DNA of 64,000 nucleotides, from contig NC_081391.1 in assembly GCF_030684315.1 (NCBI RefSeq), positions 20,048,629-20,112,628 of the forward strand, read 5' to 3'. The translations under genes and the position numbers were made by a program. Each line of letters begins with the position of its first letter. Within the stretch, counting starts at the first letter, position 1. Positions 3,795 through 63,191 of this stretch are shown piece by piece. The notes beneath the pieces are model-generated. The model saw nothing but the letters and a program-made list of their open reading frames with translations, ran no database searches and was not told where the DNA came from. The DNA comes from Stegostoma tigrinum. Its lineage: Eukaryota.

Positions 3795-6700
3795 TCAGCT
3801 GAGTGTGAGCCTGTCAAACAGGTACTCTCCCATGCCATTGTCAGGAGCTCCCAGTCTCTTCAGGTTGGTGATGTGATCTCCCAGCTTCTTGATCATCTTC
3901 ACTTGCTCATCCAGGTAGTGCCTCTCCAGGAAGTCACACAGCTAGAACAGTCAGGTGCAGAGCTGGTTAGTGTGGAGGGGAACCGACAATTTGAATTGAA
4001 AGTGCCTTCCCCTCCCCCAACACCCCCAATTGATTCAGGCAAGTCGTGATACAAACACTTCTAGCTGAAGAGAAGTGAAATTTACTGAGTGGCAAGTCAC
4101 TATTTTTAAATTGCACAAATTAAGCTTCAGATCCATGGAATCACCACTTGCTCTTGGAGGGGGTGGGGTGAGGAAGAATTGATTGAAGCCAATTTTTCAT
4201 TCATTCATGTCCTAAAGCCACAGCCCCAAGCCCAGTGATTTTCAAAAATGCAGGAGGAGCACACATTCTCCATTTCTGTCTGAACAGCTCTACATATGGG
4301 GCTTCCAATTGGTTTTGTTCAGGGTCAGCATAAAAAGAACCAAGCTAAAAGCAAAGCAAACATTCCCTTGACAGTTCAGCAAGCCAGATTTTTCCTTATC
4401 AACAAGAAAACTCACTTTAACACAGGGTCTAGTGTCTGGAGAGACTGTACACTCGGACATGATGAGACCCCATGGTGTTAGGGTAGGACATGAAAGAGAA
4501 GACCGTCACCTATCATTTAGCCGCCGTCCAGAGAAAGGGAACGTTCAGGACATCAACTTAGCTGTCATGTGACCCTCGGGACAGATGGTTTGTTTTAAGG
4601 GAAACAGTGAAGCCTGCACTCAGCACAGAATGGAAAGGAGACCTCTCTAAAAGACAGGTTTCTATGGAGTGAGAGCTGAAGGCTCGAGGGAACCCATGGA
4701 ATTCCTGGCTGCAGAGGGTTGTTGGGGGTCAGGTAATTCAAGCATAAAGGCTGAGAACGTTAAATTCAGAAATCCTTCACTTTCCAGCCTTATCCCCTTG
4801 AATGAGGAGGATTCAGATCAACCATGATCGGAATGGCTAAAGAAACCTGATGGGCCGAGTGGCCTACTTAGAGTGAAGGGTAGGTGAAGCAGCATTCTCA
4901 GGTAAAAGAGATTGATGTAAAGGCTGAACAGCCAAGTAGGGGAGATAGAAGTACACAGTCATTTTAACAAAACTTCCATCACTTGGGTGAAACAGGAATA
5001 AAGAACTCACATGAGGGTCCGTGTGGCCAGAGGCTAGTTTGTGCAGATCCAGCAGACTCTGGTTCACATCCTTCTCCATCTGCAGAGCTCTCTGCATTGC
5101 CTCCAGACCATTGCCCCACTCATCCTGCTCTGGCTTCTGGAGGGAAGCAAAAAAGGAGATGCTTCACCCATGTGAATAATGAAGTGCAATGCAGTGAGAT
5201 GAGACTGCAACTAGGAACTAGTATGCCATATAGCATTACACCAGCTGAATTCAAGCATCAAATCCATGTCTAGTTCAGGTAGCTGTAACGTAGGTGGCTT
5301 CACCAACCTTGATGTCCTGCAGGAGGACTCGACCTCCACGTTTATTCTGGAATGCCATCAGTTTCTCAGCGTGTTCCCGTTCCTCATGGGACTGCTCCTT
5401 GAAGAACTCAGCAAAGTGATGCAGGGCAACGTCATCCCGGTCAAAGTAAGAGAACTGTGGGGAGAAGAGGAGAATGCAACAGAATCAGGCAACCTCCAGA
5501 TCTCATGCGGTGAGAAATGCCACAGAGCCTGTATGGCTTATTTTCAGCTTCAATAAAGGTGGTGTACAAATGGCCTAGACAAGGGAAGAACAGGTTGAGG
5601 CAGTAGAGTTCAGAACTAGAGATCATAATTTATCAAGGTGAAGGTCATTTTTTTGATGACCTTTGGTGAGAAGCTTGGATTTTGATCCTGCATTGTCTTC
5701 TCCAACTGTGACTGCCATTTGAGTGTAGGGGAAAGGAGACAACCCCTCAGAAGGGAGGGAATTGACATGGGAGCTAGCATTGCAACTTGCACCAAACACC
5801 TCAGTAGCCATTACTTCCCAGATCTCATGAGAAGGAACACAACCCCAATGCTAGAAACAGGAATTTTATCCTCAACCCAAGTGAGGTCAGAGACCCTGTC
5901 ACCAAAAGCCCTTCGTCACTGAATGCCAGTTGAGACAAAAATCCATTGACTTCAGTAACATCAGCATCATGGATGATGAAGTGCAAAGCTGGATGAACAC
6001 AGCAGGCCAAGCAGAATCTCAGGAGCACAAAAGCTGATCTTTCAGGCCTAGACCCTTCATCAGGGCCCAAGATGTCAGCTGTGGAGCACCCAAGATGCTG
6101 CTTGGCCTGCTGTGTTCGTCCAGCTTCACACTTCATCACCTTGGATTCTCCAGCATCTGCAGTTCCCATTATCTCTGACTATCATGGATGAACCTAGCAT
6201 GAAGGCCAACACAACAGGAATATGCTCATTTAGACACAGGTAGAAAAGGGCTCAGTTGGTTTCACTAATGAAACACCCAATTAGCTTTAAAATCAATTCT
6301 AAGAAAGTTTGATGAAGGGTCTAGGCCCGAAACGTCAGCTTTTGTGCTCCTGAGATGCTGCTTGGCCTGCTGTGTTCGTCCAGCCTCACATTTTATTATC
6401 TTGGAATCTCCAGCATCCCATTATCTCTAAGAAAGTTTGTTCAGGTTTATGCATTATGAAAAAGTCATCCACAGGAAAACATAAGGAATCTTGGATTTAG
6501 TTCCAACATAAACCACTTCAGAATAAAACCAATGTTACAGAATATAAAGCAAATCAGTTAACAAGGCAACCAAGAATCCTTAAATCACTCAAGTGGATGA
6601 GTTTGAAAGAAAGAGGCAAAACATTCAAAAGCTAATTTGTTGACTTAACATATAGTTTTAAAAAGTTAACTGAAACATATGGGGCATCAACATGACTGAC

Positions 6701-6890
6701 ATATTGCCCAGCCCAGACAACCTCAGTGGGGCAGAGTGGAATGACAGGCAGGAAAAAAAAAAATGACCTTCAAAATCACTAGGCTCACCATGGAGAGATA
6801 AACATAGGAGGAATAGAGCTCCAGGTTGATCTGTTTATTAACAGCAGCCTCACAGTCCTTGTGGTAGTTCCGACACACTTGGGAGGCCAT
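3795..6890 (-). CDS. Ferritin subunit (heavy chain B / middle-subunit-like), copy A1, intact, 173 aa
   Basis: Exons 6789-6890, 5308-5454, 5011-5136, 3795-3941, all GT-AG phase 0. Protein [173 protein letters not shown]. Ferroxidase ligands are present. Confidence 0.96.
5977..6180. mobile_element. Inverted (hairpin) Penelope terminal-repeat insertion in A1 intron 1; copy at ~27265-27468
   Basis: Two opposed copies of the PLE terminus, flanked by the direct repeat ATCATGGATGA (5966-5976 and 6181-6191). Confidence 0.8.
6311..6425 (+). mobile_element. Short Penelope 3'-terminal fragment with target-site duplication (TSD), unit-1 specific
   Basis: Flanked by TCTAAGAAAGTTT (6298-6310 and 6426-6438). 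The site is empty in A2 at ~27586-27599. Confidence 0.85.
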
Positions 6891-6957
6891 CTTCACTATT
6901 CCTGCTCACTTTCACCTGGGCAACTCCAGAACTCAGCCTCTCAGCCACAAGCTCTTG

Positions 6958-7103
6958 TATTTAACCTCCTGGAACATCCTGCACTCAACCAGGGAATGAC
7001 ATCACCAATGATGATTGACAATCCCTGATAGCCAATCAGGCATCTCCATGAATGCAGGAGCCAATGAAGGGCATGGGGTGGAATGAGATCCCCAGAGCCA
7101 ATC
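6958..7103 (-). promoter_or_regulatory. Putative proximal promoter of ferritin A1
   Basis: TTAAATA TATA variant at 6958-6964, ~70 nt upstream of the ATG. TGACATCA at 6997-7004. CCAAT boxes at 7005, 7032, 7061 and 7099. Confidence 0.65.
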
Positions 7104-7739
7104 AGAGCTTTGGAACTGAGGCATATTTGGAACATTCAGTGATTGTCGCTGATGAACAGGAGGTGGATGTTCTGCCCTGTCCTGCCACCCAATTGTATCA
7201 AGCTTGGTCTGTTGCTTCCTTACGCTCTTCCTACATTGGTCCTGTGTTCCTGTCACACCATGAACGAACGAACATCCAACTGTCTCACATCTGAGCAGTT
7301 TATTTGTTCCCAATATTTCTGGGAAAAAGATTGCAGAGTTCTGAATCCTTTTCCTGAGGAAATGATTCCTGGCACCTGCCCTGGATGGCCACAGCATAAT
7401 GATGGCATTGTACTCCTTGGTCACGCTAAAATAATTTCTCTCCCTCTGGCTCCTCAAACCCGATTGTTATTTTCCAAACTTCAATTGTAGTCAGCCCTAA
7501 ATCTTCATTACCCAAGTGAATGCAAGTACACTCTTTGCAAATTGTCCTCACAATTTAAGCCTGTTAGTCCTGGGATCGTTCTGGTGAATGCACACTGTAG
7601 CGCGACGATGGTGTTGTTGCTGAGCTAGTCACAGAGAGGCTCGGATTAACACCACGAGGGCAATAAGTGCTGACCTTAGTCAGCAATGCCCTCGTCCCAT
7701 GAATGAACTGAAGAAAACTATCATCGATTGCCTTGGAAA

Positions 7740-7930
7740 TCAATCTGGTTCACTGATATCTTTCAGGGAAGGAAATGGACTCCACGGCCTGTATATGACT
7801 ACAGACCCACAGCAATATCACTGACTCCTAACTTGCGTCTGAGATGGTCAGAAACCTTTTAATTCAAGGGCAGTGAGAGAGGAGCGACAGGGCTTGGTCT
7901 TGCCAGTGACATTCTCCTCCATGAAATCAT
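7740..7930 (+). mobile_element. Degenerate SacSINE/DeuSINE-like SINE fragment; copy at ~28897-29085
   Basis: TCTGGTTCACTGAT...AGGGAAGGAAAT...AGACCCACAGCAAT...TGACTC resembles the shark SINE core. Recognised from memory, not from a search. Confidence 0.55.
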
Positions 7931-8029
7931 TTCAAAAACACTTGCTCCAAGGCCGATATATCAGAACTGAATACTGTTCTCCAGGTGGGGTTCACCCTAC
8001 ACTTTCCACCAGTGTAGCACAACCTTTCT

Positions 8030-8336
8030 GGTGGCTCGGTGATTAGTACTACTGCCCCGGAGCGCCGCAGACCTGGGTTCAATCCCATCTTCGAGTGGCC
8101 GTTTGTGCATTCTCCCTGGGGCTGTGTGGGTCCCCTTCAGAAGCTCTGGGTTCTTCCCACAGTCTAAAGATGTGCACATCAGGTGGACTGGCCGTGCTAT
8201 GTTGCCTTTAGCAAGCAGGCTAGATGGGTTAGCCATGGGGAAATGGTGGGGTTACAAGGATGGGGTGGGCCTGGGTGCAATGCTCTTCTGAGGATCAGTG
8301 TGGGCTGAATGGCCTAGTTCCACACTGTAGGGATTC
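8030..8336 (+). mobile_element. tRNA-derived HE1/V-SINE-like element
   Basis: A box TGGCTCGGTGA, B box GGTTCAATCCC (8076-8086), V-domain-like TTCCCACAGTCTAAAGATGTGCA, and a CR1-like tail. Confidence 0.8.
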
Positions 8337-8884
8337 ACTGATTTATATTCCAGTTCCACTGCCTTGCAATGAACATTAAAATGCAATTAGCATTTTAAAA
8401 ACATCTCATTTACTCTCTACAAGTTGTTAATAATTTCTGCACGCAGATCCCCAAACACACTCTGCGCCTATTTAGCTCCTCGCACTACACTATTTCAGAA
8501 CACACTGATGTGTGTGTCTTGGTCTGAAGTACTCTTCCTCAGATTAAATTCTACTGGTCAATATTGTCTATTTGCTTTATTAGTGCCATCTGGTTCTGTG
8601 TGGCAGAGGCAGGTTTATTATTGGCAGTGTTCAAGAGGCACTGGGTAATTAAACAGGAACAACTTGCCAGTTTATAGGGAAAGGCAGAAGATTCACAGAA
8701 AGGGTAAAGTGCTCAGAAACCGAGTGCAAATGAGACAGTCTGATGGGCCGTCTTCTACAGTATGATAATGCTGTTGCGCTTCCATCAGGATGAGCTGGCT
8801 CACCTCCTCGGGAAACATGAAGACAACCAATATGAATGAATTAACTACCACTAGATCAAGGGCAGACTTTGAGACAAACCAAGA

Positions 8885-10221
8885 CATCAGTTGTTGGTAA
8901 AGTGTTGGAAAATGTTCCAAGAGATAGGATTTATAATCATCTAGAAAAGAATAATTTGATCAGGGATAGTCAGCACGGTTTTGTGAAGGGTAGGTCGTGC
9001 CTCACAATCCTTATTGCGTTCTTTGAGAAGGTGACCAAACAGGTAGATGAGAGTAAACCGGTTGATGTGGTGTATATGGTTTTCAGCAAGGCTTTCGATA
9101 AGGTTCCCCACAATAGGCTATTTACAAAATGTGGAGGAATGGGATTGTGGGAGATATAGCAGTTTGGATCAGAAGTTGGCTTGCTGAAAGAAGACAGGGT
9201 GGTGGTTGATGGGAAATGTTCATCCTGGAGACCAGTTACGAGCGGTGTACCGCAAGGGTCGGTGTTGGATCCACTGCTGTTTGTCATTTTTATAAACGGC
9301 CTGGATGAGGGCGTAGAAGGATGGGTTAGTAAATTTGCAGACGACACTAAGGTCGTTGGAGCTGTGGATAGTGACAAAGGATGTTGTAGGTTATAGAGAG
9401 ACATAGATAGGTAAGCTGCAGAGCTGGGCTGAGAGGTGGCAAATGGAGTTTAATGCGGACAAGTGTGAGGTGATGCACTTTGGTAGGAGTAACCGGAATG
9501 CAAAGTACTGGGCTAATGGTAACATTCTTGGTAGTGTAGATGAGCAGAGAGATCTCGGTGTCCATGTACACAGATCCTTGAAAGTTGCCACCCAGGTTGA
9601 CAGCGTTGTTAAGAAGGCATACAGTGTTTTAGCTTTTATTAATAGAGGGATCGAGTTCCGGAACCAAGAGGTTATGCTGCAGCTGTACAAAACTCTGGTG
9701 CGGCCACACTTGGAGTATTGTGTACAGTTCTGGTCACTGCATTATAAGAAAGATGTGGAAGCTTTGGAAAGGGTGCAGAGGAGATTTACTAGGATGTTGC
9801 CTGGTATGGAGGGAAGGTCTTACGAGGAAAGGCTGAGGGACTTGTGGCTGTTTTCGTTAGAGAGAAGCAGGTTGAGAGGTGACTTAATTGAGACATAAGA
9901 TAATCAGAGGGTTAGATAGCGAGAGCCTTTTTCCTAGGATGGTGACAGCGAGCATGAGGGGGCATAGCTTTAAATTGAGGGGTGAAAGATATAGGACAGA
10001 TGTCAGAGGTAGTTTCTTTACTCAGAGTAGTAAGGGAATGGAACACTTTGCCTGCAACAGAAGTAGATTCGCCAACTTTAAGTACATTTAAGTCGTCGTT
10101 TGACAAGCATATGGACGTACATGGAATAGTGTAGGTTAGATGGGCTTCAGATTGGTATGACATGTCGGCACAACAGAGGGCCAAAGGGCCTGTACTGTGC
10201 TGTAATTTTCTATGTTCTATA
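8885..10221 (+). mobile_element. CR1 LINE, 5'-truncated (RT fragment, 3' UTR, TTCTATG tail)
   Basis: [37 protein letters not shown] and LVRPHLEYCVQFWS in broken frames. Ends in TTCTATGTTCTAT. Confidence 0.93.
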
Positions 10222-10931
10222 AACATCTATCCCACGAGCTCCAGATTTAACCAGGAACTGGAAAAAACCAAACCCCATTCTCTTCAAGTCTGCTATTAGA
10301 AGGTCAGAGTAGAAGCTGATATCTTTTTATATCAGCTCACTAAAGCCTTAATTTAGGGAGGGTGGGGGTCTTAGCCTTTCTAAAAGAGAAATGACTTGCT
10401 GCCTGCCAGATGTAGTGTAAGGGAAGTCAGGTGCTGAGCAAAAAACCCTAAATAGATGCTTCAAATGTGGGAAGCCTCTGAACATCTGAGGGATGAGTCA
10501 AGCTTTCCTCAAAAAGTAAATAGACACCACAAGAGTGCTATTGACCTCTGGCTTTGAGAGTTGATTTCAATATTTTATCAGTACTGCTGCAACAGGGTGC
10601 AACATTTTGCTGAAGATAAACTTGGTTGCTCGTACTGCTGCAAACAAGGGGCAATTGCCCCATATATAGCCAAATGCTTGTCCACTCACTGACTCCAAGT
10701 ATCTTTGGACAGTCATCCCTGTTGACATTATCCAGCTGGTCCAAGGAGGTGGACCAAAGTCAGCAAACCATATCCATGTTGTTGGGAATGGACAAAATCC
10801 TTGGAAGATATTGGATAGGCTTTGGGCTGCAGAATTACAGAAAGCTAGACAGCTTTGGTTCAATGATTTTTATTTCATATTCCAGTACAAGCAAAAGAGA
10901 ATGCAAGGACCAAGTGATTGTAAAATCCCAC

Positions 10932-13089
10932 TCAGCTGAGTGTGAGCCTGTCAAACAGGTACTCTCCCATGCCATTGTCAGGGGCTCCCAGTCTCTTCAG
11001 GTTGGTGATGTGATCTCCCAGCTTCTTGATCATCTTCACTTGCTCATCCAAGTAGTGCCTCTTCAGGAAGTCACACAGCTGGAGAAAGAAAAGAAATGTG
11101 TAGCTCACTGAGCAGAAAGCATCTTTGTACTTCAAATGCTCAGTGCTATGTGAATAGGTACATTTAACCTAAAGGACCAATGCCTTATCACCTTTAGACC
11201 AAAAAAGTGAAGTGCTCACATGAGGGTCCATGTGGCCAGAGGCGGGTTTGTGCAGATCCAGCAGACTCTGGTTCACATCCTTCTCCATCTGCAGAGCTCT
11301 CTGCATTGCCTCCAGACCATTGCCCCACTCATCTTGCTCTGGCTTCTGGAAGAAGGGTTTTGTTAGTCCGAAGCTGCTGATGGGAGTTTGTACTAGAACT
11401 GAAGGCTGTGCCTTTTATGGCTAAAAACACTTGTTCGGGTTCTCGTAGAGATTGTTCTATTCAAAAGTTGATGGTGGCAGAGAGGGGGATAACCTGCCAC
11501 ATTCAGAAACAAAGCACACAAGGCACATGTGATGTTAGTGCTGGGAGCTTAAGAGGCTGATGTGGCGTTTGAAGTCAGTCACACTCCCCCATCCAGATGG
11601 GAATTGCTGGTGTCAGTGTGTGAATTACTAGACTATTGTACTTCCTAGTCAGTCCCAGCTGCAAATAAGGGAATGCCACACAACATGTTGCATTCCCCTA
11701 AGTGACTCCAGCCCGGATGTTTCCAATGGTCAATCGTTTAAGACCACCAGGATGATAGTGAAAAATCACTCGTCACTACAGCCCAATGAAGGGTCAAATT
11801 CCTTTGCTATTTGAGCATTTTAGAACTCAATTAAATTCTTAAACACCACCCTAACCATGTGGATGGAAACCTTGGTTAAAAACCCAGCAGGGGTCCTAAA
11901 ACCATGAATTTAAGTCAAGTACATGCCATACAGAGGAGTGCTCATCTCAATCAATTGTTTCTGATCACTCCACAAGCTCCATTGGATGAAAAAGCTATCA
12001 AAAACATTTCAGCCCATGCACTTGAATAAGTGCAGAATCAAAGATGCAGGATATCTAAAACACAGGCTTCTGTCAAAGTAAACCCTCAAGCTTTCCCCTT
12101 TTAAGTTAAAAGGGGGTTAAAAGTCCAACCTTGATGTCCTGCAGGAGGACTCGGCCTCCACGTTTATTCTGGAATGCAATCAGTCTCGCAGCATGTTCCC
12201 GTTCCTCATGGGACTGCTCCTTGAAGAACTGAGCAAAGTGATGGAGGGCAACATCATCCCGGTCAAAGTAAGAGAACTGTGGGAGAAAGGATTGGACAGA
12301 ATTCAATTAAAGTAGACCCAGACATTCTAAGAGCCAAGGGCTTGGTTACTCATTCTCTACCTGGCTTCAAGTTAGAGACTTGGAATTTTAGTCAAATATA
12401 TTGGCCTCAGCTAGTTTGAAATCTAGTCACGTCTGACCACATGCAAACCCCATCCTTGTTTGGGGGATCATGTTAAGAAACAGTAGATGTTAACAGTCCA
12501 GAGACAGCAGTAATTTTTTGCTTAGCATTCCACTGACTCTACTTAATGCCACAAAGACTTGCTTCCCTCACTAATCAGGGAGGGGATGCAGAAGAACCAT
12601 CTGAACAGCCTAACATTACTAATCCACATGAAGAGTCAATGTCAGTTCAGGTAAGGAAGATCTAGTCAGTTTTGGGGGCAGTGAAAACAAGATTGATCAG
12701 CTAGTTTCTCACCTCAACATTCAGTTTTACCATTAAAGTAAGGAATTAGATTGCTTCTATGGAGTAGAAAAATTCTTGTTGTCCAACCCACAGATTTGGC
12801 CATTTTAAATAACATGACAGTCACAAATGAGACAACACAGACTTGTATCTCAAAATTTAAATTGGCACAGGAGGCAGAGGTTAGAATTAAATCTTAACTG
12901 ACTGGTCACTAACACCAGAACTATTTACACAGCATACAGTGAATTAGTAATAACTTGGAAAAAGTACCCAAAAGATACAGCACTCACCATGGAGAGGTAA
13001 ACATAGGAGGAATAGAGCTCCAGGTTGATCTGCTTGTTAACAGCATCCTCACAGTCCTTGTGGTAGTTCTGACACACTTGGGAGGCCAT
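10932..13089 (-). CDS. Ferritin subunit, copy B1 (B-type body, D-type promoter), open ORF with L120P and E134K (human-H numbering)
   Basis: Exons 12988-13089, 12130-12276, 11220-11345, 10932-11078. Splice sites are canonical and there is no stop or frameshift. AATAAA lies at 10869-10874 (minus strand). Confidence 0.93.
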
Positions 13090-13156
13090 TGTCACTCTCC
13101 CTGCTCACTATCACCTAGACAGCTCTCATATCAAGTCTTTGTACCACAAGCTCCAG

Positions 13157-18758: not shown

Positions 18759-20515
18759 TCAGCTCAGGCTGAGCCTGTCAAACAGATACTCTCCTTTGCC
18801 CTTCTGAGGGGCTCCCAGTCTCTTCAGGTTGGTGATGTGATCTCCCAGCTTCTTGATCATCTTCACTTGCTCATCCAAGTAGTGCCTCTCCAGGAAGTCA
18901 CAGCTGGAAGACAAGACAAGTTAGTGGAATCCACTGAAGACATTTGGAAGTGACCCTCAATTCAGATTTAACAAATCAATACCATGTTGAGGGAGAGGGG
19001 CACTCTGGTGATGCGTTTGGACTGTTGTAGATTTAACAGTCTGCAGGAGGCAGTTATGAGACAATTGTATTCCCCCTCCCCACAAGAGTACACAAACAGA
19101 TCACTTTCAGGTTGGAAACATTCACCTTTCCTGGAATTTGAAAGTCATCCTGGTAGTTTGTTGTTCGAAAGGTCATCAGCCCTACATGCTGAATTTAGCA
19201 GTGAAAGGCAAGGAAGCTTATTGGAGAGAAAGTGAGGAACTCACATGAGGGTCTGTGTGGCCAGAGGAGAGATTGTGCAGATCCAGCAAACTCTGGTTCA
19301 CATCCTTCTCCTTCTGCAGAGCTCCCTGCCTTGCCTCCAGATCATTGCCATGGTCAGTCTTCTGAAGCGGCAGCGTGGGGGTGGATGGTAAGAGACAAGA
19401 CACATCACTTAAAATGCAAGAAACCAGTGAAAAAAGCAACAAGACCTCCATCTCATTAGGAGAGTGTACAACAGCTAAGAGATTATATCCAAAGCATTAA
19501 AATGCTATAATATTCAGGGCTTAAAAAGCCTTCTTCAGGACAAAATGACATTTCATTAAACCCAATCTTGATGTCCTACAAGAGGAGCATGCACCCACAT
19601 TCTGGAATGCCATCAGTTTCTCAGCTGTTCCCATTCCTTCGAGGAACAGTGCCATGAGAACTCAAAGTGACACAGGACAACATCTTCCCAGTCAAAAGTG
19701 AAAGGATTGTAAACAGGGAAACCCATTGGGGTTTGTTGTTAAAGATCCTTCTCTACCTGAAATGCTTCTTCAGTCAGGCCTGCAGGTTCTGGAAGGGAAA
19801 GCCTCCCTTGTAAATCACAACAAAAACCACACCATAATAGATTGAGGTGTAGTTTCTTGCCTTGTGAAGCAGGAGGGAAGGGAGGGATCATCTTCCTACA
19901 AGTTGGGTCTTGAATATTTCATACTTGACACAAAATATTAAGTATTAAAATAAAACCTCATCATTCCAAAAGGCCATATGGGTAGGGAAAATGGCTCAGC
20001 TTCAGCAAGGAAACCTTCCAACACAGAACAGGATTCTCAGCTCTGGAGTGAACTAGCAAAGTTTATTAGTGAAGTATTGACAGCAAATAGAACTCAGGAT
20101 TGTGATAGTGTTCCTCCCTCTGGGATGGAGGTCCAGGGTCGCATACGCTCTAGAGGTCAGACATATTATCTCTAGACAGATTAACACTATTCAATAGAAT
20201 AAATCCAATTACATTGTACAGAAAAACACAGACAGACATCCCAGGTCATACATCAGGATCAAACCATTAAAAGATTATTCACTTCTCAAGGTCAGGGAAA
20301 GGCCACAGAAGATTCTAAAATATGAATTGAATGATGCAGAGAGACCCTACACCCACAATACATTGAGGCCACAGCTTGAAATCTGAAATAAATCCAGAAA
20401 ACACCACTGTCACCATGGAGAGGTAAACATGGGAGAAAGAAAGCACCAGGGTGATCTGCTTGTTAACAACATCCTCACAGGCCTTGTGATGGTTCTGCCA
20501 CACTTGGGAGGGCAT
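18759..20515 (-). pseudogene. Ferritin pseudogene C1
   Basis: Exon 1 20414-20515 (MPSQVWQNHH..., E27V). Exon 2 ~19567-19706 has a lost donor and acceptor, a TAG and an internal inversion. Exon 3 19245-19361 has a 9-nt deletion. Exon 4 18759-18903 has a 2-nt deletion giving CTG TGA. Confidence 0.93.
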
Positions 20516-25083: not shown

Positions 25084-28046
<2,963 letters not shown>

Positions 28047-37248: not shown

Positions 37249-39567
<2,319 letters not shown>

Positions 39568-39634
39568 TGTCACTATTCCTGCTCACTATCACCGAGACAG
39601 CTCTCATATCAAGTCTTTGTACCACAAGCTCCAG

Positions 39635-43101: not shown

Positions 43102-43166
43102 AAGCCGAGATGCTATGAAGGGAACTCTGCAGATAAAGAAGGTGAACCAGAGTCTCCCGGATCCCC
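43102..43166 (+). pseudogene. Inverted orphan ferritin exon-3 relic (unit 2 copy)
   Basis: Paralogous to 17797-17866 (GGAACTCTGCAGATAAAGAAGGTGAACCAGAGTCTC) and more degraded. Confidence 0.7.
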
Positions 43167-47087: not shown

Positions 47088-48491
47088 TTCCACGATGTAA
47101 TGCAATTACTCCATGCAGTTCACTCACTCCTGCACCCTCTTTAGAAATGCACCTTTTATTTTGTATTATCTCTACCTGCTTTTCCCACCATTTTTTCTGC
47201 TTTGAACTTCATCTGCCACTTGCGTGCCCATTCCACCAATATGTCTGTGCTCTTGTGAGGTTCTACACCATGGCCGTCACGCTAAGTTTCTTATCATGTA
47301 CAAAGTATGAAATTGCATCTTTTATACCAAGGTCTAAGTCATTAGTTTGCTTTTGAAAAAGCCTGGTTCCTTCCCCTAACCCGTGGAACTCCACTACAAA
47401 CCATCCCCCTCGTCCAGAGAGCATCCATTAGCAGCAGTTCTGTTTCTAGTAATGAGTAACTCGTCAAAGTGACGAGCATCTACTCCTTCACTTGTCCCAT
47501 TTGGAAAGTGAATGAAAAGCTGATGCAAAAGGACAATGCATCTAGAAGTTGTGGCCTCTCAGTGTTCATAATGTATTGAACCTACTAATTTCCAATTTTG
47601 AAACTAGTCCTCAAGCAAACTTAAGAAATCTACTCCCCACCCAAGTCCCCTAACCTGCCATTTCTAAATGGATGCTGTATATGTTGCTTGGCTTCTATTC
47701 AAGCAGAGCTTCTGAATGTTGGAGCTGAAAAAAGTTCACAAACAGGACCTCTCCTCCTCAGCAATTTCTGAACCCTGTTCCCCTGCTGAGAGCTTCACTT
47801 CAGACAAACAAGGAGGAAAAGAAGTGACCCAAACAATGATTGGCTGCTGTGCATATAAAAGCTATTGGGAGGTATGGAAGGGTAGGAAGTAAGAAGTAAT
47901 GAGGAATCAGGTGGGGGTGGGGGCGTTGAAGAAGAAAGGCAGAAAAGCTTGGATTCCAACTCTGATTCCTTGAAATCATTCATCTGCTAAACCTCAGGGC
48001 CCAAAAATTAAAAACAAAACAAATCCACAAGCTGCAGATGGGAAGGTGTGGGACAGCCCTTACAGTCTGAAAGCTTAGAAAGAGTTTACTGACCCTTACT
48101 GCTGTTGGAAAAAGGGTAGAGGAAGCACCTAGTGTCTAGTGTCATCCAGAGAAGAAAGTCCTAGCACTAAGTGGTACACACCTGGAAGGCTAATGTAACA
48201 CTAAAAGCAAACACCTCATGTACATTTTCATATGGCAAATTTGTATGTTCCATATGTGCACACAATTTAAGCTACCTTTGGAAGAAGCTATAGAAGTGTG
48301 TGAAATTTCTATTGTGGATTTTTTCAGTCAAGTTTCCTGGTTAGCTGTTGGTAATTTAGGTAGTTTTAAAACAAAGATCCAAAATCCAGATCCACAAATA
48401 CTTGTATTTCCATTTGGAATGGCAGACAGAAAAAGGCAAAGTGTTTGTCAGAATTAGGTCACAAATGGACCAGTTTCTTCTATAACCCCAT

Positions 48492-50672
<2,181 letters not shown>

Positions 50673-51281
50673 CTTCACACCTAATTACAAAAAGCAAACT
50701 CAAACAACAGCCTAACCCCACCTCCCATGAGCTCTAGTATTTATGTAAATGGGAATCTGCATTCCAACAGGAAATGTTATCACCAATAGTGCTTGGCTAT
50801 TAGGGATTTCCAATCAGGAAGCTCCCATGAATACAGGCATTAATCAGGGAGAGGTGCTGGTGGGAGCTACGTACAAAGCAGAGCCAATCGGTTCATGAAG
50901 GCAGCTCAACCCCACCTTCTCAAGGGGAATCTAGCAATGTACAATAAATGCTGGCCCAGCCCATGACTGCCCTTGTCCTGCAAGTGAATACTCAAAAAAA
51001 TTACAGTGCCGTAGGAGGACGCTTGGTCAATTGTGCTGCACCAGATCCATTGTGCTCATCTCTTGCCATGTCCCAGCACATCACCACGATCCCAAAAGAA
51101 AACCCAATGTTCTCTTCAAAGCTTCAATTGTACCTGCCTTCCCCACATCTCCAGGCAGCACATTGCACAAACTCTCCACATTCTGTGTAAAAATGTTTTT
51201 TTTCTCACTTCACCCTTGCTTTGTTTGCACATCACTTTAACTATCCCCTCACGTATCTACTTTTTAAAATTTGTGGACGGG

Positions 51282-51617
51282 ATGAGGGCATTGCTGACTA
51301 GGCAGCATTTATTGCCCATCCCTAATTGCCCAGAGGGCAGTTAAGGGTCAACCACATTGCTGTGGGTTTGGAGTCTCATGTTGGCCATTTGGCAGTATGG
51401 CAAATGGCGGTTTCCTTCCTGAAAGGACATCAGAGGACCAGATGGATTTTTCCAACAATTGACAATGGACTCATGGTCATCATTAGATTCTTAAACTCCA
51501 GATATTTATTGAAATCAAATTCCACCATTTACCATGGTGGGATTTGAACCAAAGTCCCCAGAACATGATCAAGGTCTCTGGATTAACAGTCCACAATCAT
51601 ACCACGAGGCCATTGCC
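51282..51617 (-). mobile_element. SacSINE-like tRNA SINE
   Basis: CAGCATTTATTGCCCATCCCTAATTGCCC tail, core homologous to 7740-7930, and B-box-like GGTTCAAATCCC on the minus strand at ~51539-51550. Confidence 0.7.
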
Positions 51618-54600
51618 GAGTAAAAACTAAATGGGTTACTTAACAACAGCCAAGAATCTTGGATCTGAATGTTCAGTTTATTCCCAAGGTTTTGGCAGAG
51701 CAGGGTTTAGATTTCCAGTATTGTGTGTGTGAGGAGCACCATCCCTAATGGATGAGCTCTAACCTTTAGGTTATGCTGCTGTCTACACCTATTTCCCCTT
51801 GTCCGAAAATATCCCACCCGAGAACATCGTTTTTCTCTCGTTGACTCTATCAAATCAATTAATCAGCTTCAAATCTTAATAACAATTATTTCTTGTTCTT
51901 CTACACTCACAGGAACTTGAGGTTTTAAAAAATGTTGTTTTGGGATGTTGGCATCACTGGCGGGGCGTGTATTTATTGCCCATCCCTAGTTTCCTCTTGA
52001 GAAGGTGGTGGTGAGTTGCCTTTGTGAACAGTTGCAATGTCCATCTGGTGAAAATAGACTCAGATTGCCCCAAAGGAGAGAATTCCAGAAATCTGACTGA
52101 TTTAACACTGCAGTAACATTGAAGGGACGGTAATATATTTCCATGCCAGGATGGTGGATGGATTGGAGGGGAACCTGCAGGGGGTGGTGTTCCCACGTAT
52201 CTACTGCCCTTGTCCGACCAGATGGAAGTGGATGTGGCTTTGGAAGGAGCTGTCAAAATACCTGAATTTCATCTTCAATGCAAATTGCCTTCAAAGTTTA
52301 ACCCTTTCGACCTGTTGTCATCCTGTGCTGCATTCCCTCAAAGACTCAGAGATCGAGACCTGAATACAGTATCATAGATATGCACTCACTGGCATTTAAT
52401 AAATGGTAGCAGAACTGTCAGATCAATAACATGGGGGCATCATTTTAAGGTGAAGAGCAGTAGGTTTAGAGGGGATTTGCCAAAAACATTTTTCACCCAG
52501 ATGGTGTGATGGGAATCTGGAATGCACTGTGTGGGAGTGTAGTAGAGATGGGAAACCTCACAACTTTTGAAACGTACATGGATGGGCACTTGAAGTGTCA
52601 TTACACTTAAGGCTATAGGTGAAGTGCTAGAAAGTGAGATGAGTGTAGATAGGTCAGCACAGACCTGATGTCTATGGCCCGAATGTCGAGCTCTTTGTAT
52701 TCCAGACAATTCTGTGCCTGTCCACTAGCTCTTGCAATTTCTGCAGATGGATCCCGTAACCTTATGGTCACCACCAATTCTGTTCCCCGAATGTCACAGT
52801 TTAGCTAATTTCTCTTTCTTGTTCCGAAGTGCATGGCCTCACTCTTCCTCACATTGAGGCCTGCCTGCTCCTGTTTGCTCATTCATTTCAACAATGGCTT
52901 GTTGCAAACTTGCAGGTCCCATCCACACCATCCACTTTGTCGCTTCACTTTGTTTTGTCAGGAAATTTGGACATATATCTCTCAAGTCCTTCATCTACGT
53001 CAATCTGTCAATGTGAAACTGAAGCCCATGTGGAGATTCCTGGGAATGAGAGTCAAATTTTGTCAATCAAAGTTGGCAGCCATTCTGTCAGCCACCTTCC
53101 CCTTTCCCCATTCCCACCACATGTCCAACAGTATCTTCCTATTGTACGTGCATGCATTTTTCCTAATTATGTCATGGATACTCGTCATTGGTAGAATTGA
53201 TATTAGTTGCTTTGACTGTTCTCAAACTGATAGCATCAGTCCTCCAGGTCAGAGCTCCCGGATTCACCTTAGGGTTTGACGAGTTTGTAAATGAATATTT
53301 CTCCCTGTACATGATGTCAAATTAAACGACATCTGAAGGTTTGAAGCATCTCTCATCTGGTCTAGAAGAGGTCAGGGACACTGACACTGATCACAGCAGT
53401 TTAGGATATTACCCTGCACGAGATAGCCTGCAGCAAATCTGCAAATCAACCAGTCACACTGGGAAAACAGAGATAATGGGAACTGCAGATGCTGGAGAAT
53501 CCAGGATAACAAAGTGTGGAGCTGGATGGACACAGCATGCCAAGCAACATCTCAGGAGCACAACACTGGGGGAATCAGACAGGATGCCTCTCTCAGAATC
53601 CTATCACTCCCATTGCTGTTAAGTTTCATGTGGAGCTTTATCCGATCAAGCTCAGGAGCTCTATCATCCATTCCTTCTTCTGTAAGGAAGTTGTCTGTTG
53701 GATTTCTCTTAGATTTGAGAAGCGAGATTTTAGAAAAAAAATGAACAGCAGTATCATCTCAGGACCAGAGTCAATTCTTTTGGTATTTCCTGACACCAGA
53801 AAATATAGTCCTTTCAATTTAGAGTGCAGGAAATTGTTGAACAAATTGCAGCCTGAGAATCTACGTCCAGTACCAGATTTAAGTCCGGCATGATAATGTC
53901 TCACTTGTGCACCCCTGCCCTCCTCAGGACTGACTCTGAACACTGCAGTATATGGAGGATGACTATTCAGTTAGTTCGCTACATCCAGGGTAAGCACCAG
54001 GATCCCTTACTCATTTAATTGTATGCTTGCGACAACACAAAAAAAAAATGGGAGCGAGAGTCCACGTGGCGGACTCCCAAGGCAATGGCCACCTACCTCT
54101 ATACAACAGAGACTCTATCACTGGTGTGTCTCGCAAGCCGGCCGCTGTTTGGATAATGAGTGCTTTCCTGAAGTTTTGCAGTCGGCCCAGTTGTTTGTCT
54201 TAAACTCAGGGCTGTGTGAGCTGTTAATTGCCAGTGCTTAAACTTGTGGAAGAGTTTTCTAACCAAGTGCCAGCCGAAGCTATTTCACATGAGCACCAAC
54301 TGCATTGCTGAGCCACTCGAGTCACATGCAGGCCAGATCAGCTAAGGGTAGCAGATTTCACTCCCAGAGAAAGATTAGTCAAACAGAAGAATGGGAGATA
54401 TGCAAAACTGTCAGATAGTAAACTGCCCTGATACACCAGCCATCTCTTTCGGTTTTTAAAGACTCTCCAAATTCTCAACTGAAATTTGGAAGAAAATTGA
54501 TCACTGACGTTTGGCAGCCAGTAAAATAAGGAACTGCAAAAGCATGTTTAAGAGAAGTGTGGTGTAGTGGCAGCATCCCTAGACAAGGATGGTCAGGTTT

Positions 54601-54850
54601 GTGCCCCACCCGAGAGGCGATTAACATCCAAAAATGAATTGATTAGCAGAGGGTTCAACTGTGTCAAAAAGGTCAAAGAAGCACTTGCCATACAACTGAA
54701 ATATCATGGATCTGGACAAAAATCAGTTATTCAATTTCACAAAAAGTGTTTCTTCATTATGGAGATTTTATTTTCCAATTCAACAAGGGTAGATAAGGTT
54801 TCTAAAACACTAAATCCATTTACAGCACTGATGGGATTCTAAAATCCCAC

Positions 54851-56834
<1,984 letters not shown>

Positions 56835-59800
56835 TGTCACTATTCCTGCTCACTATCACGTAAACAAGTCTCATACGAAGTCTCTGTACCACATGCTCTA
56901 GTATTTATACTCCTGGGACATCCTATGTTCAACGAGGGAATGACATCACCAATGATGACTGACATTCCCTGAAAGCCAATTAGGAATCTCCCATGAATTT
57001 AGCCCCGCCTCTGCCCTCCCACCAATTAGAGAGAGGGTGTGGGTGTATGAGGCAGAGCTGATCAGAGGTGCAGATTGTTGTCAAGTCTGGATGGTTATTC
57101 TGTGATTGGATCAGCAGTCGGTCATTTAGAATCTCCAATCTGCCGGAACTCTCTGTCAGGTCATGGCTAGTTTGAACAAAAAATTAGATTTGGATTTGGA
57201 AAGCTTTTCTTTCTAAGCTTGTTGTGATCAACTGCAGGAGGTGCTCAATGAAGGAGAATCAGTTTCTGATCATGTTCTGCTGGGATATTGGAGAGAAAGG
57301 TAGGAGATTGGTGGTATTTCCTAGAAATTTGTAACAGAAACAAACAGGACAAAGACAGGAAGGATGTTTCTGATGACCAATGCGCCCAGAACCAAGGGTC
57401 ACTGTCTAAGGATATAGAGTAGTCTGTTTGGGATTGAGATGAGGAGAAATGTCTTCAGCCAGACAGTGGGGAGTCTGTTGTATTCTGTGGGACAGGAAAC
57501 AGTTGAGGCCAAAAGACTGAAGGTTTTGAAGAGTTAGATGTAGCTGATAGGGCTATGGGGATCAAAGGGTATGGAGAGAGAGTGTGAAGATGGTACTGAG
57601 TTAAGGGATTACCCATGATCATGTGGGATGCCAGAGCAGGCTGGAAGGGCTGTATCAAACTGCTTCATAATTTTGAACATTTCAATCAGGTCATCTTTTA
57701 ATCTTCTCTGCTCCAAGGAGATAAGGCCAATTTTTAAAATCTTTCCTGGTATCATTCCAGCAAATCTCCTTTGCACAGTGCCCAGGGCTTTAATGCCCTC
57801 CCTTAGAAACAGTGCCCAGAATTGAACACAATACTCTAATGTGGTCTGACCAATGGTGTGTAGTGGTGTAGCGTTACTTCTTTGCTTTTATACTCTCGGG
57901 CTCTCCTTAAAAACACAAGGTTCCTATAAGCCTTCTTCATGACTGTTTCATCTTGCCTGGCCACCTTCAGGGAATTGTAGTTTTAAATCCTGAGGGCTCT
58001 CTGCTCCTGTACTCACCTTGACGTTGTTCCATTGTACCTGTATTATCTCTTCATGTCTCCGTGTCTCTTCGACCAAAACGCATTTCTTGCATTTTTTTGT
58101 GTTGAAATTATAAAGTGATTGCCAACATCAAATCTTACCAAATAAAAATCAAGAGATGCTAATTTTGAAGTCTTCAACTGACACCGGACATGTGTGTGTG
58201 TCCACTACCCACTATCCTTTCTGTGAAGAAGCTGTTTCTGACATTATCCTGGACAGTTTAGCACTAATTTGAAGATTCTATTTCCATTCCAGACCCTACG
58301 TCCTAGATGACCCATTGAGACTAAACAATTCCTCACAAGCTACCCTGTCAAATCCACGAATGCTCTTAAAACTTTCAATTACCGCCATCTCTTAACCTTC
58401 CATACTGAGGGACTCGGGCAAGCTGCCATCATCATTTAACCAGCTCTTTATCTCTGAGTTGATTCTGGAAATTCTCTGCTGCACCATCTTCAGGCCCAAT
58501 CTGCCAAAAATGAGATCTCCAGAGGTGGTTGAACCAGAACGTGACAATTTCACAAAAAAACCTCCACCCAGGGGTGTTCAAATCCCTTTGAGATCAGGAC
58601 TGACATTGAATTAATTTCTTTGTTCAGTGTTTTTATATCTCGTCACTAGTTTTAATACATTTCTGTCCACTTGTCTCAGTTTCATTTTGATCATTAGTTT
58701 TGACAACGCAGCAGAAGATGTTCCCATTTCTAAAACACTCTGGCTCATCTTTCTTGGTCAGAAGTGGATAACTTCACACTTCCCCTTATTGAACTGTATC
58801 AGCCAGTCTTCCCCACTCCATGGAAGTTTGAAACATTCTCCTGTCATGATAAAGTGCCACTTGATGTAATGCCATCAGCAAATATTTGAATTGAGGCAGT
58901 CCATTTCTTCATCTGTAACATTTATAATCCAAGGAAAAGTTAAGGCCCCAGCTTCGCTCCTTGGGGAAAGTAATCACATCTTGCTTTTTCTTTTATTACC
59001 TCATGGGATGAAGGTTTTGTTGGCTGCCCCAGCATTTATTGTACTTCCCTAATTATTATTGTCTTCTTGAATTGCTGTTGTTCATTTGGAGCAGGGAGAT
59101 CCATAATGCCATTTTGGACAGAATTCCAGGATTCAGATGGTATGACTGTAGATTGAGTTTTGCCTCATGAGCTTCATTGAGTATTTTGAAGATTTGATGA
59201 AGAGCAATGATGAGGGCAGAGTGGTGGGCGTGATCTACATGGACTGCAATGAAGCGTTTGACAATGTTGCTCATAGTAAGATGTTTAGCAAAGTGAGATC
59301 ACATGGAATCCAGGGAGAATTATCCATTTGGATACAGAAATGGCTCAAAGGTGGAAGGCACAGGGTGCCGGTAGAGGCAACAAAGTGTGGAGCTGGAGGA
59401 ACACAGCAGCCCAGGCAGCATCAGAGGAACAGAAAAGCTGATGTTTCGGGTTGAGACCCTTGAGAAATTGGGGGGGGGGGGGGAAGGGGAAGCTCAGAAA
59501 TAAAGAGGAGGGGTGGGACTGGGAAGGTAGATGGGATGGTGATGGGTGAGTGCAGATCGGGAGTGGTCAGTGAGGTGGGAAAAGAAGATGAACATGAACA
59601 GGTCAAGGAGGTGGGGATTGGTCATGGGATTAGGAGACTTGAGGTTAATAAGGTTCACATTTAGTGTCTTGGGCTGTAAGCTCCCAAGGCAGAATGAGGT
59701 GCTACTCCTCCAGTTTGCGAATGACATTGGTGTGATACTGGAGGATGCCCAAGATGGACAGGTCAGCCATGGATTGGTAGGGGGGGAAAAGAAGTTAAAA

Positions 59801-60393
59801 CGTTTTGCGATTGGAAAAAGTTGTTTGTTGCTCATTGAGCACAGATGCTCTAGAAAAACTGTCTCCCTCATGGTGGCTACATTGGGTGCATCCGATACAA
59901 TAGACCAACTTCAAACAGGTGCAGGTGATCTGTGTCTGATGCCGAAGGTTTGTTTGTTTTTGTTCTGAATGGAGACACGGGCTGGATGTGGTGGTGGGGC
60001 GAGGGTGTCAGGGAATGGTTTAGCTGTTCCTGCAGTTGCAGGGAACAGGGCTGGGGTCAATGGGGAGTACAGAGTGGATGAGGGAGTGGCAGGGATACAA
60101 GCGTAGAGGTACTGGGGTGTCCACAGTAAGAGGGGCTATGCCTGCTTCTGTGGAATATGTGGAATATGTGGAACAGTCCCTCTTCTGCTGCTACACTGGC
60201 ATTATCCCCTACCTGTTCCTTACTCAAAGATTAACAGTAAATAGCCAGCTACATTGCTGTGTGGGTGGTGAGTCAGCTGTCGGCCAACTGCTTTCCTTCC
60301 CTGAAAGGGTGAGAAAAGTTTAGAACTGCTGATGGTTGGCCTTTCTGCAAATTGAGTGAAGTGTCTCTGCTACTCTGACCCACCCCCCCACTG

Positions 60394-60458
60394 AAGCCTC
60401 GAGGCAATGAAGGGAACTCTGCAGATAAAGAAGGTGAACCAGAGGCTCCTGGATCTCC
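60394..60458 (+). pseudogene. Inverted orphan ferritin exon-3 relic (unit 3 copy)
   Basis: CTCGAGGCAATGAAGGGAACTCTGCAG...GTGAACCAGAGGCTCCTGGATCTC matches exon 3. Confidence 0.7.
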
Positions 60459-61403
60459 TTCTCTGCAAATGTAGCTTTAATTGCACCAGCTGTCCTCAGC
60501 AGTTGATTGCTGGAGCAAGAACAGGGACTATGCCACATTTGTCCCACATGCTACAAGGTGGGCATTGAGGATAGGAGACACTGTTACAGGAGAGAGCAGA
60601 TTCCTCACACAGTCTCCGACAGTAGAGACTTGTTAGAAAATCCAATTCCTTAGCTTGGGAAACTAGAACAGTGGTGTATTGCTTGCTCAAAGAAGCATGG
60701 AACAAAAGCAACCTGATGCATTATCTCTGCATGCCAGATGCTATTGCTGTTACAGTCTTAGAATATTTTTAATGCTTAGATTCTACCAGTAAAGTTAACA
60801 GAAGATTACTGGCAAAACTGAGGCCTGGCAGTACCTGGGGACAGACTTCAGTTGTGGAGTCGCCAGACTCAAACATTAACTGATTTAATCAACACACATC
60901 CAGAGTTCCACCTGCACCTATCCCGCCACTCCCCAACCCCAATTTTTATTTTGTATGAACCCAGCTTTTAGGAAAGTTGGAGTATTGCTAGGGAGAGGGC
61001 ACCAGTTAAGTGGCTAACAGTTAGATAGAGTGGAGCAATTTTGGTGAAGCTATTCACTGGAGACTACTCTTACAGAATTGTCACAGTGAGGACAAGACAG
61101 ATAGTGAGCATTGCGAACAAGCCAAAAGCTTAACAGTTGTGATTTCCACAACAATTACTCACTTCAAAAATTCTTCTGACTCTGGATTCAGAAACTGAAC
61201 AAAAATTGCCAGGGCAAGCATCGATTCAATGCAGAGAGCAAAAAGCCGAAGGGATTTAATAATCAGATAATAAACAGCCAAATAAATGAAGCAGTCACTC
61301 AAAGTCGTCAGATACATGGGCAATGTTTTCATTGACTTTTTTGTGCACTCTGCACTTGCACTAGAACACCAGTGTACATGAAATGGAGTTGTTGAATCCC
61401 CAT

Positions 61404-63191
61404 TCAGCTCAGGCTGAGCCTGTCGAACAGATACTCTCCTTTGCCCTTCTGAGGGGCTCCCAGTCTCTTCAGGTTGGTGATGTGATCTCCAAGCTTCTTG
61501 ATCATCTTCACTTGCTCATCCAAGTAGTGCCTCTCCAGGAAGTCACACAGCTGGAAGACAAGACAAGTTAGTTGAGTCCATTGAAGACATATGGAAGTGA
61601 CCCTTAATTCAGATTTAACAAATCACCACCATGTTGAGGGAGAGGGGCACTCTGGTGATGCGTTTGGACTGTTGTAGATTTAACAGTCTGCAGGAGGCAG
61701 TTATGAGATAATTGTATTCCCCCTCCCCCCAGGAGTAGACAAACAGATCACTTTCAGGTTGGAAACATTCATCTTTCCTGTAATTTCAAAGTCATCCTGG
61801 TAGTTTGTTGCTCTAAAGGCCATCAGCCCTACATGCTGAATTTAGCAGTGAAAGGCCAGGGAGCTTCTTGGAGAGAAAGTGAGGAACTCACATGAGGGTC
61901 TGTGTGGCCAGAGGAGAGTTTGTGCAGATCCAGCAGACTCCGGTTCACATCCTTCTCCATCTGCTGAGCTCCCTGCATTTCCTCCAGACCATTGCCATGG
62001 TCAGCCTTCTGAAGTGGCAGCGTGGGGGTGGATGGTAAGAGACAAGACACATCACTTAAAACGCAAGAAACCAGTGAAAAAAGCAACAAGATCTCCATCC
62101 CATTAAGAGAGTGTACAACAGCCAAGAGATTATATCCAAAGCATTAAAATGAAATAATGTTCTAGGCTTAAAGAGGTCTTCATCAGGACAAGATCACATT
62201 CCATTAAACCCAACCTTGATGTCCTACAGGAGGACCCAGCACCCACATTCATTCTGGAATGCCATCAGTTTCTCAGCTGTTCCCATTCCTTCAAGGAGTA
62301 GTCCCATGAGAACTCAGCAAAGTGACACAGGGCAACATCTTCCCAGTAAAAGTGAAAGGATTGTAAACAGGGAAACCCATTGGGGTTTGCTGTTAAAGAT
62401 CCTTCTCTACTTGAAATGCTTCTTCAGTCAGGCCTGCAGGTTCTGGAAGGGAAAGCCTCCCTTGTCAATCACAACAAAAACAACACCAGAATATGTGGAG
62501 GCTCTTTCCTTGTAAAGCAGGAGGGAAGGGAAACAAGCATCTTCCTACAAGTTGGGGGGGGGGGGGGGGGGGCGGCGGCGTGAATATTTCATACTTGACT
62601 CCAAATATTAAGCATTAAATGACACCTCATCATTCTGAAAGGCCATATGGTTTAGTGAAAATGGCTCAGCTTCAGTGAGGAAACCTTCCAACACAGAACA
62701 GAGTTCCCCACTCTGAAGTGAACTTACAAAGTTTACTAGTAAAGTATTGACAGCAAATAGACCCAGAGATTGAGAGTGTTCCTTCCTCTGGGATTGGAGG
62801 TCTTGGGTCACATATGTTCTAGAAGTAAGAGATCAGGTCTCTGGGCAGATTGACTTACTCTAACTATTCAATAGAATAAATCCAATTACATTGAACAAAA
62901 GAAAAACAAACAGACTTCTCAGGTCAGACATCAAGATCAAACCATTGAAAGATTATTCACTTCTCAACGTCAGGGGAAGGCCACAGAAGATTCTAACATG
63001 AATTGAATGATGCAGAGAGATCCTACACCCACAATACAAGGAGACCACAGCTTTAAATCTGAAATAAATCCAGAGAACACCACAATCACCATGGAGAGAT
63101 AAACATGGGAGAAAGAAAGCACCAGGTTGATCTGCTTGTTAACAACACCCTCACAGTCCTTGTGGTAGCTCTGATGCACCTGGGAGGCCAT
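61404..63191 (-). pseudogene. Ferritin pseudogene C3
   Basis: Exon 1 63090-63191 (E27V). Exon 2 ~62215-62360 has a TAG, indels and a 22-nt inversion. Exon 3 61892-62008 has a 9-nt deletion. Exon 4 61404-61550 is full length. Confidence 0.93.

What the first reader, a model, noticed from the sequence alone, without database searches (positions are those of the whole stretch)
3795..63191. Large tandem ferritin array undergoing birth-and-death inside nested segmental duplications
Seen: 10 four-exon ferritin loci in 64 kb, all on the minus strand. They fall into four intron-defined types (A-D) re-amplified as 19-24 kb units, and a further unit begins at the right edge of the window. Only 4 have open ORFs; 3 carry a single lesion. 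Known: most vertebrates have few intron-containing ferritin genes, and mammalian extra copies are mostly retrocopies. Inference: an old four-gene cassette is being actively amplified and contracted, which suggests dosage selection or a lineage-specific role. I cannot tell whether this expansion is already described.
Basis: partly seen in the sequence, partly recalled or inferred. Interest (0 to 1): 0.7.

Follow-up and report, generated by a model that had tools for sequence, protein, structure and literature searches.

The report
Slice of giant shark ferritin array
This window is ten loci of a 1.6-million-base run of about 240 shark ferritin (iron-storage) genes, half of them intact and none with the usual iron-sensing RNA switch, which likely mass-produce ferritin for the ovary or egg; such shark expansions are already published.

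Summary
Real and far larger than the window, but published in outline. The window holds 9 four-exon ferritin loci plus one orphan exon 4 (4 intact, 3 single-lesion, 2 decayed) in 19-24 kb blocks. It is part of a 240-locus array over 1.6 Mb: 123 intact, 117 broken or partial. The array has two tandem-block domains and a ~450 kb palindrome. No iron-responsive element (IRE) precedes any of 200 first exons; the two canonical IREs belong to single-copy FTH1 and an M-type gene beside the array. Ferroxidase ligands are kept; dN/dS is about 0.3. A 'four-gene cassette' is not supported (about 46-61 intron/flank types). Exons differ by only dS 0.12 where introns do not align, so gene conversion likely acts alongside birth-and-death. 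A second array of 140 or more L-like ferritins lies 5.5 Mb away. Shark ferritin expansions are reported by Sahm 2024 (ovary-specific) and Yang 2026. This scan already noted the IRE loss, second array and conversion on other windows. Best reading: an IRE-free, dosage-driven ovarian iron store (0.55); tissue untested here.

The parts
3795..6890 (-). g1, intact ferritin gene, type A (exons 6890-6789, 5454-5308, 5136-5011, 3941-3795; 173 aa)
   Evidence: all three junctions seen joined in contig(s) of guessed-RNA run X2, two in X1
6891..6970 (-). TATA-like box and short leader of g1 without an IRE
10932..13089 (-). g2, intact; chimera of a type-C upstream region and a type-B body
18759..20515 (-). 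g3, decayed type D (frameshift, lost splice sites)
25084..28046 (-). g4, type A, one stop codon in exon 1 (27969-27971)
32090..34262 (-). g5, type B, one extra base in exon 2 (same lesion in several other array copies)
37249..39567 (-). g6, intact, type C
44107..44253 (-). g7, orphan exon 4 of type D; exons 1-3 absent; 6 copies of this lesion class in the array
48492..50672 (-). g8, type B variant, 2 bases short at the 5' end of exon 2
54851..56834 (-). g9, intact, type C variant
61404..63191 (-). g10, decayed type D
1..13095 (.). duplicated block, 97-98% identical to 21308-34268
21308..44996 (.). second block (23.7 kb)
44997..63983 (.). third block (19.0 kb); a fourth starts at 63984
1064..1717 (-). 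GIY-YIG-like ORF remnant at block start (Penelope-like retroelement, recalled label); copies near 22370 and 46248
   Evidence: PF01541 E 0.0009, below curated cut-off
8845..9159 (+). LINE reverse-transcriptase fragment between genes
   Evidence: PF00078 E 3e-7

Best explanation
The window is a slice of a 240-locus tandem array of IRE-less ferritin genes with intact ferroxidase ligands, which likely works as a gene-dosage device that mass-produces ferritin outside iron-regulatory-protein control in the ovary or oocyte to stock iron for the egg. Shown: array size and layout, about half the loci intact, no IRE, conserved ligands, low dN/dS, chimeric genes, and an elasmobranch-wide clade. Inferred: unequal crossing-over and inverted duplication add and remove multi-gene blocks, dead loci included, while exon-centred gene conversion keeps the coding sequence uniform. 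Taken from another species: ovary expression. Untested: iron loading, translation independent of iron, and co-assembly with the L-like subunits of the second array.
For: 240 loci, 123 intact, 105 distinct proteins. E24, Y31, E58, E59, E104, E137, Q138 in 123 of 123 intact copies and H62 in 122. dN/dS 0.30 over 110 distinct CDS; 0.32 in 10 disjoint between-type pairs, p 3e-21; 0.29 in 12 palindrome pairs. IRE in 0 of 200 first-exon loci, while the same scan finds it at FTH1 and at the M-type neighbour. TATA-like box in 101 of 123 and CCAAT in 123 of 123 intact copies, no shuffle control. Between types dS 0.12, but under 20% of intron length aligns in 185 of 190 pairs. 51 of 112 non-CpG differences between palindrome partners are alleles found in 2 or more other types, against about 10% expected (28 of 60 vs 17% at third positions). 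Clade support 99.1/98 across nine shark genera, with genus-level grouping. Ovary-specific expression of the largest Greenland shark cluster (10.1101/2024.09.09.611499). Ferritin transcripts are abundant in fish follicles (PMC1488847).
Against: No tissue-labelled RNA for this genome; the spliced contigs come from runs only guessed to be RNA, of another organism label, about 96% identical. Yang et al. find some copies transcribed in fin and blood. Half the loci are broken and dead loci are amplified with live ones. A dead right-domain type still shows dN/dS 0.27 against g1, so low dN/dS may be inherited or converted in, and it says nothing on selection for copy number. Position 141 is Met where bullfrog M ferritin has Asp and the genome's H and M genes have Ser and Ala, so activity may be reduced. 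Shared alleles can also come from recurrent mutation. No Greenland shark sequence was compared directly.
Confidence: 0.55

Rival explanations
1. Mutational runaway: a recombination-prone locus inflates and deflates nearly neutrally; only a few copies are needed, and conversion spreads their constrained sequence to the rest.
For: 117 of 240 loci broken or partial; the same lesions are copied 3-9 times; dead copies keep low dN/dS; retroelement remnants at block edges; contig depths hint at about 8 vs about 4 type-A copies in two samples.
Against: Large clusters recur in distant lineages: 127, 180 and 138 member sequences in clusters named for Chiloscyllium, Heptranchias and Pristiophorus, syntenic clusters in Greenland and white shark, and a second, separate array of another subunit type. 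29 intact copies persist in the older middle domain.
Confidence: 0.22
2. Somatic protection against iron-driven lipid peroxidation (ferroptosis) in PUFA-rich sharks, linked to longevity, as speculated by Yang et al. 2026.
For: Some FTH1b copies are transcribed in fin and blood; ligands intact.
Against: This carpet shark has 123 intact copies in one array against 59 annotated in the Greenland shark, and the authors note high numbers in shorter-lived sharks; ovary-specific expression reported; loss of the IRE removes the fast iron response such a role would use (inference).
Confidence: 0.12
3. The subunit is a bulk structural or low-activity cage protein of the egg rather than an active iron loader.
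For: Clade-wide Met141 and usually Cys6 and Leu170 differ from H/M ferritins.
Against: Seven ferroxidase-site residues are near-invariant here and in most relatives.
Confidence: 0.08
4. Assembly artefact (duplicated haplotypes).
For: Right-domain blocks are 99-99.65% identical; unplaced C216 is 99.2-99.5% like them; one 33 kb gap. The exact count may be off.
Against: 46-61 distinct intron/flank types; blocks in the window differ by 2-12%; in two DNA runs exon bins sum to hundreds of times the depth of the single-copy neighbour, and type-A intron contigs in X4 are about 8 times single-copy, matching 8 assembled copies.
Confidence: 0.03

Closest known systems
   Same: Hundreds of clustered copies (155 'FTL', 179 'FTH1'; largest cluster 104 + 118), syntenic in Greenland and white shark, ovary-specific; here 240 H-like loci plus 140 or more L-like loci on one contig.
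   Different: Other species; about half the loci here are broken against over 85% full-length there; identity to human-type ferritins is about 73%, not 90% (against the genome's own H and M genes); the section read does not mention IRE loss, conversion or palindromes.
FTH1b tandem clusters of Yang et al. 2026 PNAS (PMC13214024; passages and supplement word search)
   Same: Tandem clusters on one chromosome apart from FTH1a, expanded in sharks generally, some 5'-truncated copies.
   Different: 59 copies; read as ferroptosis/longevity; 'IRE' and 'ovary' have 0 occurrences in the main text, 'iron-responsive' and 'gene conversion' 0 in five supplements.
Amphibian Fth cluster beside Ruvbl2/Gys1 (PMC13003380; passages and section 2.1)
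   Same: Small intron-containing ferritin cluster linked to RUVBL2; here four divergent single genes flank the array, RUVBL2 lies 1.4 Mb away and BAX 4.9 Mb away.
   Different: 4-7 genes, not hundreds; glycogen synthase hits here are on other contigs.
Bullfrog ferritin M (PDB 1mfr, 4mjy)
   Same: Best solved relatives of an array protein, E 7e-85, colinear.
   Different: Asp140 there is Met141 here.
Mammalian FTHL17 cluster (search listing only; details recalled)
   Same: Germline-biased extra ferritin copies.
   Different: Recalled as intronless, X-linked, few copies and ferroxidase-degenerate; an analogy only.

Membership tests
Ferritin (PF00210), vertebrate 4-exon gene | Ferritin domain; four exons with phase-0 GT-AG introns | tested here: met
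H/M-type (ferroxidase-active) subunit | Ligands equivalent to human E27, Y34, E61, E62, H65, E107, Q141 (numbering recalled; offset 3) | tested here: met
   123 of 123 intact copies, H62 in 122
H/M-type (ferroxidase-active) subunit | Small or acidic residue at frog-M 140 / human 144 | tested here: not met
   Met in 121 of 123
H/M-type (ferroxidase-active) subunit | Measured ferroxidase activity | not testable with these tools
   needs recombinant protein
Canonical IRP-regulated ferritin gene | 5' IRE (RF00037) | tested here: not met
   0 in window, 0 of 200 first-exon loci; both positive controls found
FTH1 orthologue | Position beside a bestrophin gene (human FTH1-BEST1 linkage recalled) | tested here: not met
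   That place is held by a single IRE-bearing gene on C20
FTL / ferritin M locus | Linkage to RUVBL2, BAX and GYS1 | tested here: inconclusive
   RUVBL2 and BAX on the same contig at 1.4 and 4.9 Mb, GYS not; tree backbone weakly supported
Published shark ferritin clusters (FTH1b / FTH1+FTL) | Large tandem intron-containing cluster, one clade across sharks | tested here: met
   (white shark proteins included; no Greenland shark sequence among hits)
Published shark ferritin clusters (FTH1b / FTH1+FTL) | Ovary-specific expression | not testable with these tools
   no tissue-labelled RNA run listed
Birth-and-death multigene family | Repeated duplication and many pseudogenes | tested here: met
Birth-and-death multigene family | Old paralogues with large silent divergence that group across species | tested here: not met
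   dS 0.03-0.26 between types with unalignable introns; grouping mostly by genus or order, from a 90%-clustered protein set with limited resolution
Concerted evolution by gene conversion | Homogenised exons, mosaic alleles, chimeric genes | tested here: met
   recurrent mutation not fully excluded

The most novel reading that the evidence does not exclude
Elasmobranchs run a second, IRP-independent ferritin system: twin mega-arrays on one chromosome, one ferroxidase-type (about 240 loci) and one L-type (140 or more), both stripped of the IRE, amplified for oocyte-scale dosage the way histone or oocyte 5S genes are, and held uniform by exon-limited gene conversion through hundreds of millions of years of block turnover.
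Probability: 0.4. Interest if true: 0.65.

Novelty: new member of a known kind. Interest (0 to 1): 0.35.

Why it matters
The expansion itself is known. If the best reading holds, it reframes it from a longevity/ferroptosis signal to maternal iron provisioning without IRP control, with direct tests (ovary RNA-seq, reporter, enzyme assay). The array is also a clean case of block-level birth-and-death combined with exon-level conversion.

Tried and rejected
Four-gene ancestral cassette: rejected. Whole-array assembly artefact: rejected; exact count open. Retrocopy origin: rejected; processed copies exist but are scattered on other contigs. IRE fossil in the leaders (lead from earlier notes): weak; 6 of 35 leader types align to the M-gene leader at p<=0.05 (median z 1.2), 0 of 35 to the FTH1 leader, types not independent. 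My interim idea that the published 'FTL' and 'FTH1' counts were the same loci counted twice: dropped after the second array appeared. Run search: no RNA holder listed on record; contig depth cannot rank expression. No ferritin copies in 80 kb left of the array (one E 0.95 fragment). No ferritin mention in the Squalomix preprint or the 2025 Greenland shark preprint (word searches). Literature searches showed no paper on IRE loss, conversion, the palindrome or a shark mitochondrial ferritin; the library lacks most subscription papers and bioRxiv supplements were not readable. No structure or complex prediction was run: ferritin folds and pairs would pass by likeness to solved cages. DNA of the second array was not read, so its intact fraction and leaders rest on pattern counts and database proteins. 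Only 90 of 267 kb of C216 was read.
Full report
Observation. Exon searches find ten ferritin loci on the minus strand. Nine have four exons; 44107-44253 is an orphan exon 4. Four are intact (173 aa), three carry one lesion, two are decayed. Self-alignment shows blocks starting at 1, 21308, 44997 and 63984, 88-98% identical.

Extent. The window is G000:C50:20,048,629-20,112,628. A 23-nt exon-4 pattern has 227 exact genome matches, control 0. I read C50 from 19.86 to 21.74 Mb. From 19,948,760 to 21,555,573 there are 240 loci (103 minus, 137 plus): 123 intact, 20 single-lesion, 49 multi-lesion, 48 partial, giving 105 distinct proteins. The classes come from BLAST-derived exon bounds, so a few may be misfiled. 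One 33 kb gap lies near the left end. Unplaced C216 (267 kb, 90 kb read) continues or duplicates the right domain at up to 99.5%. The nearest named proteins are from carpet sharks (Stegostoma, Rhincodon, Chiloscyllium) and are already annotated as ferritin-like.

Architecture. Left domain (includes the window): a 7-locus, ~44 kb unit repeated at 98% identity, plus rearranged pieces. Middle: about 35 mostly unique loci mirrored in a palindrome centred near 20.697 Mb, arms 93-99% identical. Right: blocks of 20-50 kb at 98-99.65%. Clustering at 90% gives 46-61 types per intron or flank, so the four types of the window are a local sample. Chimeras such as g2 (type-C upstream, type-B body) point to crossovers in or near exons. 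The same lesions recur 3-9 times, so dead loci are amplified with their blocks.

Real, not artefact. In DNA runs X3 and X4 the single-copy neighbour has contig depth 3-6 and 13-18; array exon bins sum to 2,400-3,600 and 10,500-19,600, and type-A intron contigs to 15-25 and 122-153. The tool warns that this is no copy number, but the X4 ratio of about 8 equals the 8 assembled type-A copies. X3 gives about 4, a weak hint of variation between samples. The youngest blocks and C216 could still inflate or deflate the count.

Protein. Closest solved structure is bullfrog ferritin M. Seven ferroxidase-site residues are invariant in 123 intact copies, His62 in 122. Met141 replaces Asp/Ala/Ser and marks the clade in other sharks. 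dN/dS is 0.30 overall, 0.32 in ten disjoint pairs and 0.29 in twelve palindrome pairs. Against over-reading this: only intact copies were compared, and one dead type also gives 0.27, another 0.58.

Regulation. Rfam finds nothing in the window. A hairpin scan finds a strict IRE before 0 of 200 first exons, 3 loose look-alikes, and both controls. Genome-wide, the covariance model (82 candidates scored) and a 22-nt pattern with two mismatches give canonical IREs only at the C20 gene beside bestrophin (FTH1) and at an M-type gene 52 kb right of the array; three 2-mismatch matches lie on other contigs, control 2. Promoters keep TATA-like (101 of 123) and CCAAT (123 of 123) motifs about 70-250 nt upstream of the ATG. 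A decayed IRE trace is only weakly supported.

Mode of evolution. Among 20 type representatives dS averages 0.12 (0.03-0.26), yet 185 of 190 pairs align under 20% of intron length. Upstream similarity fades beyond about 200 nt. Between palindrome partners synonymous sites differ more (0.050) than introns (0.021), and 51 of 112 non-CpG differences are alleles present in other types, against about 10-17% expected. In a 53-sequence protein tree (one to six per genus, chosen) the array type is one clade (99.1/98) with Heptranchias, Pristiophorus and carpet-shark subgroups. Birth-and-death describes the blocks; conversion likely describes the exons.

Locus. Four divergent single genes flank the array on the right: a partly L-like gene, a ferritin with an Arg-rich N-terminal extension, the IRE-bearing M gene and an L-like gene without ligands. 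RUVBL2 and BAX are on the same contig, echoing the amphibian cluster beside Ruvbl2; glycogen synthase is not. A second array at 12.99-14.40 Mb has 140 forward exon-1 pattern matches (99 places listed, all C50).

Expression. A 693-nt contig of run X2 joins all three introns at the predicted places and X1 joins two, with no intron cover; both are guessed RNA of another organism label and unknown tissue. DNA runs show joined forms at low depth, which the scattered processed copies explain. Ovary specificity comes from Sahm et al.; Yang et al. report some copies in fin and blood.

Verdict. A genuine new example of a published shark expansion. The IRE loss, conversion signal, palindrome and H-like/L-like twin layout were not found in print by my nine searches, but the scan has noted most of them before. 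Best mechanism: dosage-driven, IRP-independent ferritin supply for the ovary or egg (0.55). Interest 0.35.

Noticed in passing
G000:C50:21,591,488-21,601,909 (+); exon 1 in L016:1488-1757: Four-exon ferritin with an N-terminal extension of about 60 aa (11 Arg/Lys, no Asp/Glu), intact ligands, no IRE; similar leaders in 7 of 7 relatives examined from other sharks and a ray. Candidate intron-containing mitochondrial ferritin; localisation untested; noted before by the scan.
   Followed up: partly
G000:C50:12.99-14.40 Mb (+): Second tandem array, 140 or more loci, L-like subunit (Lys59, Glu138), no canonical IRE by genome-wide pattern.
   Followed up: partly
G000:C50:20.46-20.92 Mb: Palindrome of about 450 kb centred near 20.697 Mb, arms 93-99% identical.
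   Followed up: partly
G000:C50:21,570,7xx-21,580,354 (-) and 21,659,128-21,670,2xx (+): Two single, IRE-less ferritin genes with partly or fully lost ferroxidase ligands.
   Followed up: partly
G000:C17:12.13 Mb, C11:45.82 Mb, C2:16.74 and 140.65 Mb, C5:51.55 Mb, C43:36.44 Mb: Intronless decayed ferritin copies; the C17 one is array-type, which implies germ-line transcription of array genes at some time (inference).
   Followed up: no
window 3600-7100 vs L017, runs X3 and X4: Type-A intron depth is about 4 times single-copy in one sample and about 8 times in another: weak hint of copy-number variation.
   Followed up: no
array-wide, exon 4: Older middle-domain copies mostly keep a 175-176 aa C-terminus; 106 of 129 intact copies (C50 plus the read part of C216) stop at 173 aa.
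   Followed up: no
window 44585-44998 / 45701-46112 and 705-1117: Inverted repeat remnants of a GIY-YIG element sit at the block boundary where g7 lost exons 1-3.
   Followed up: no
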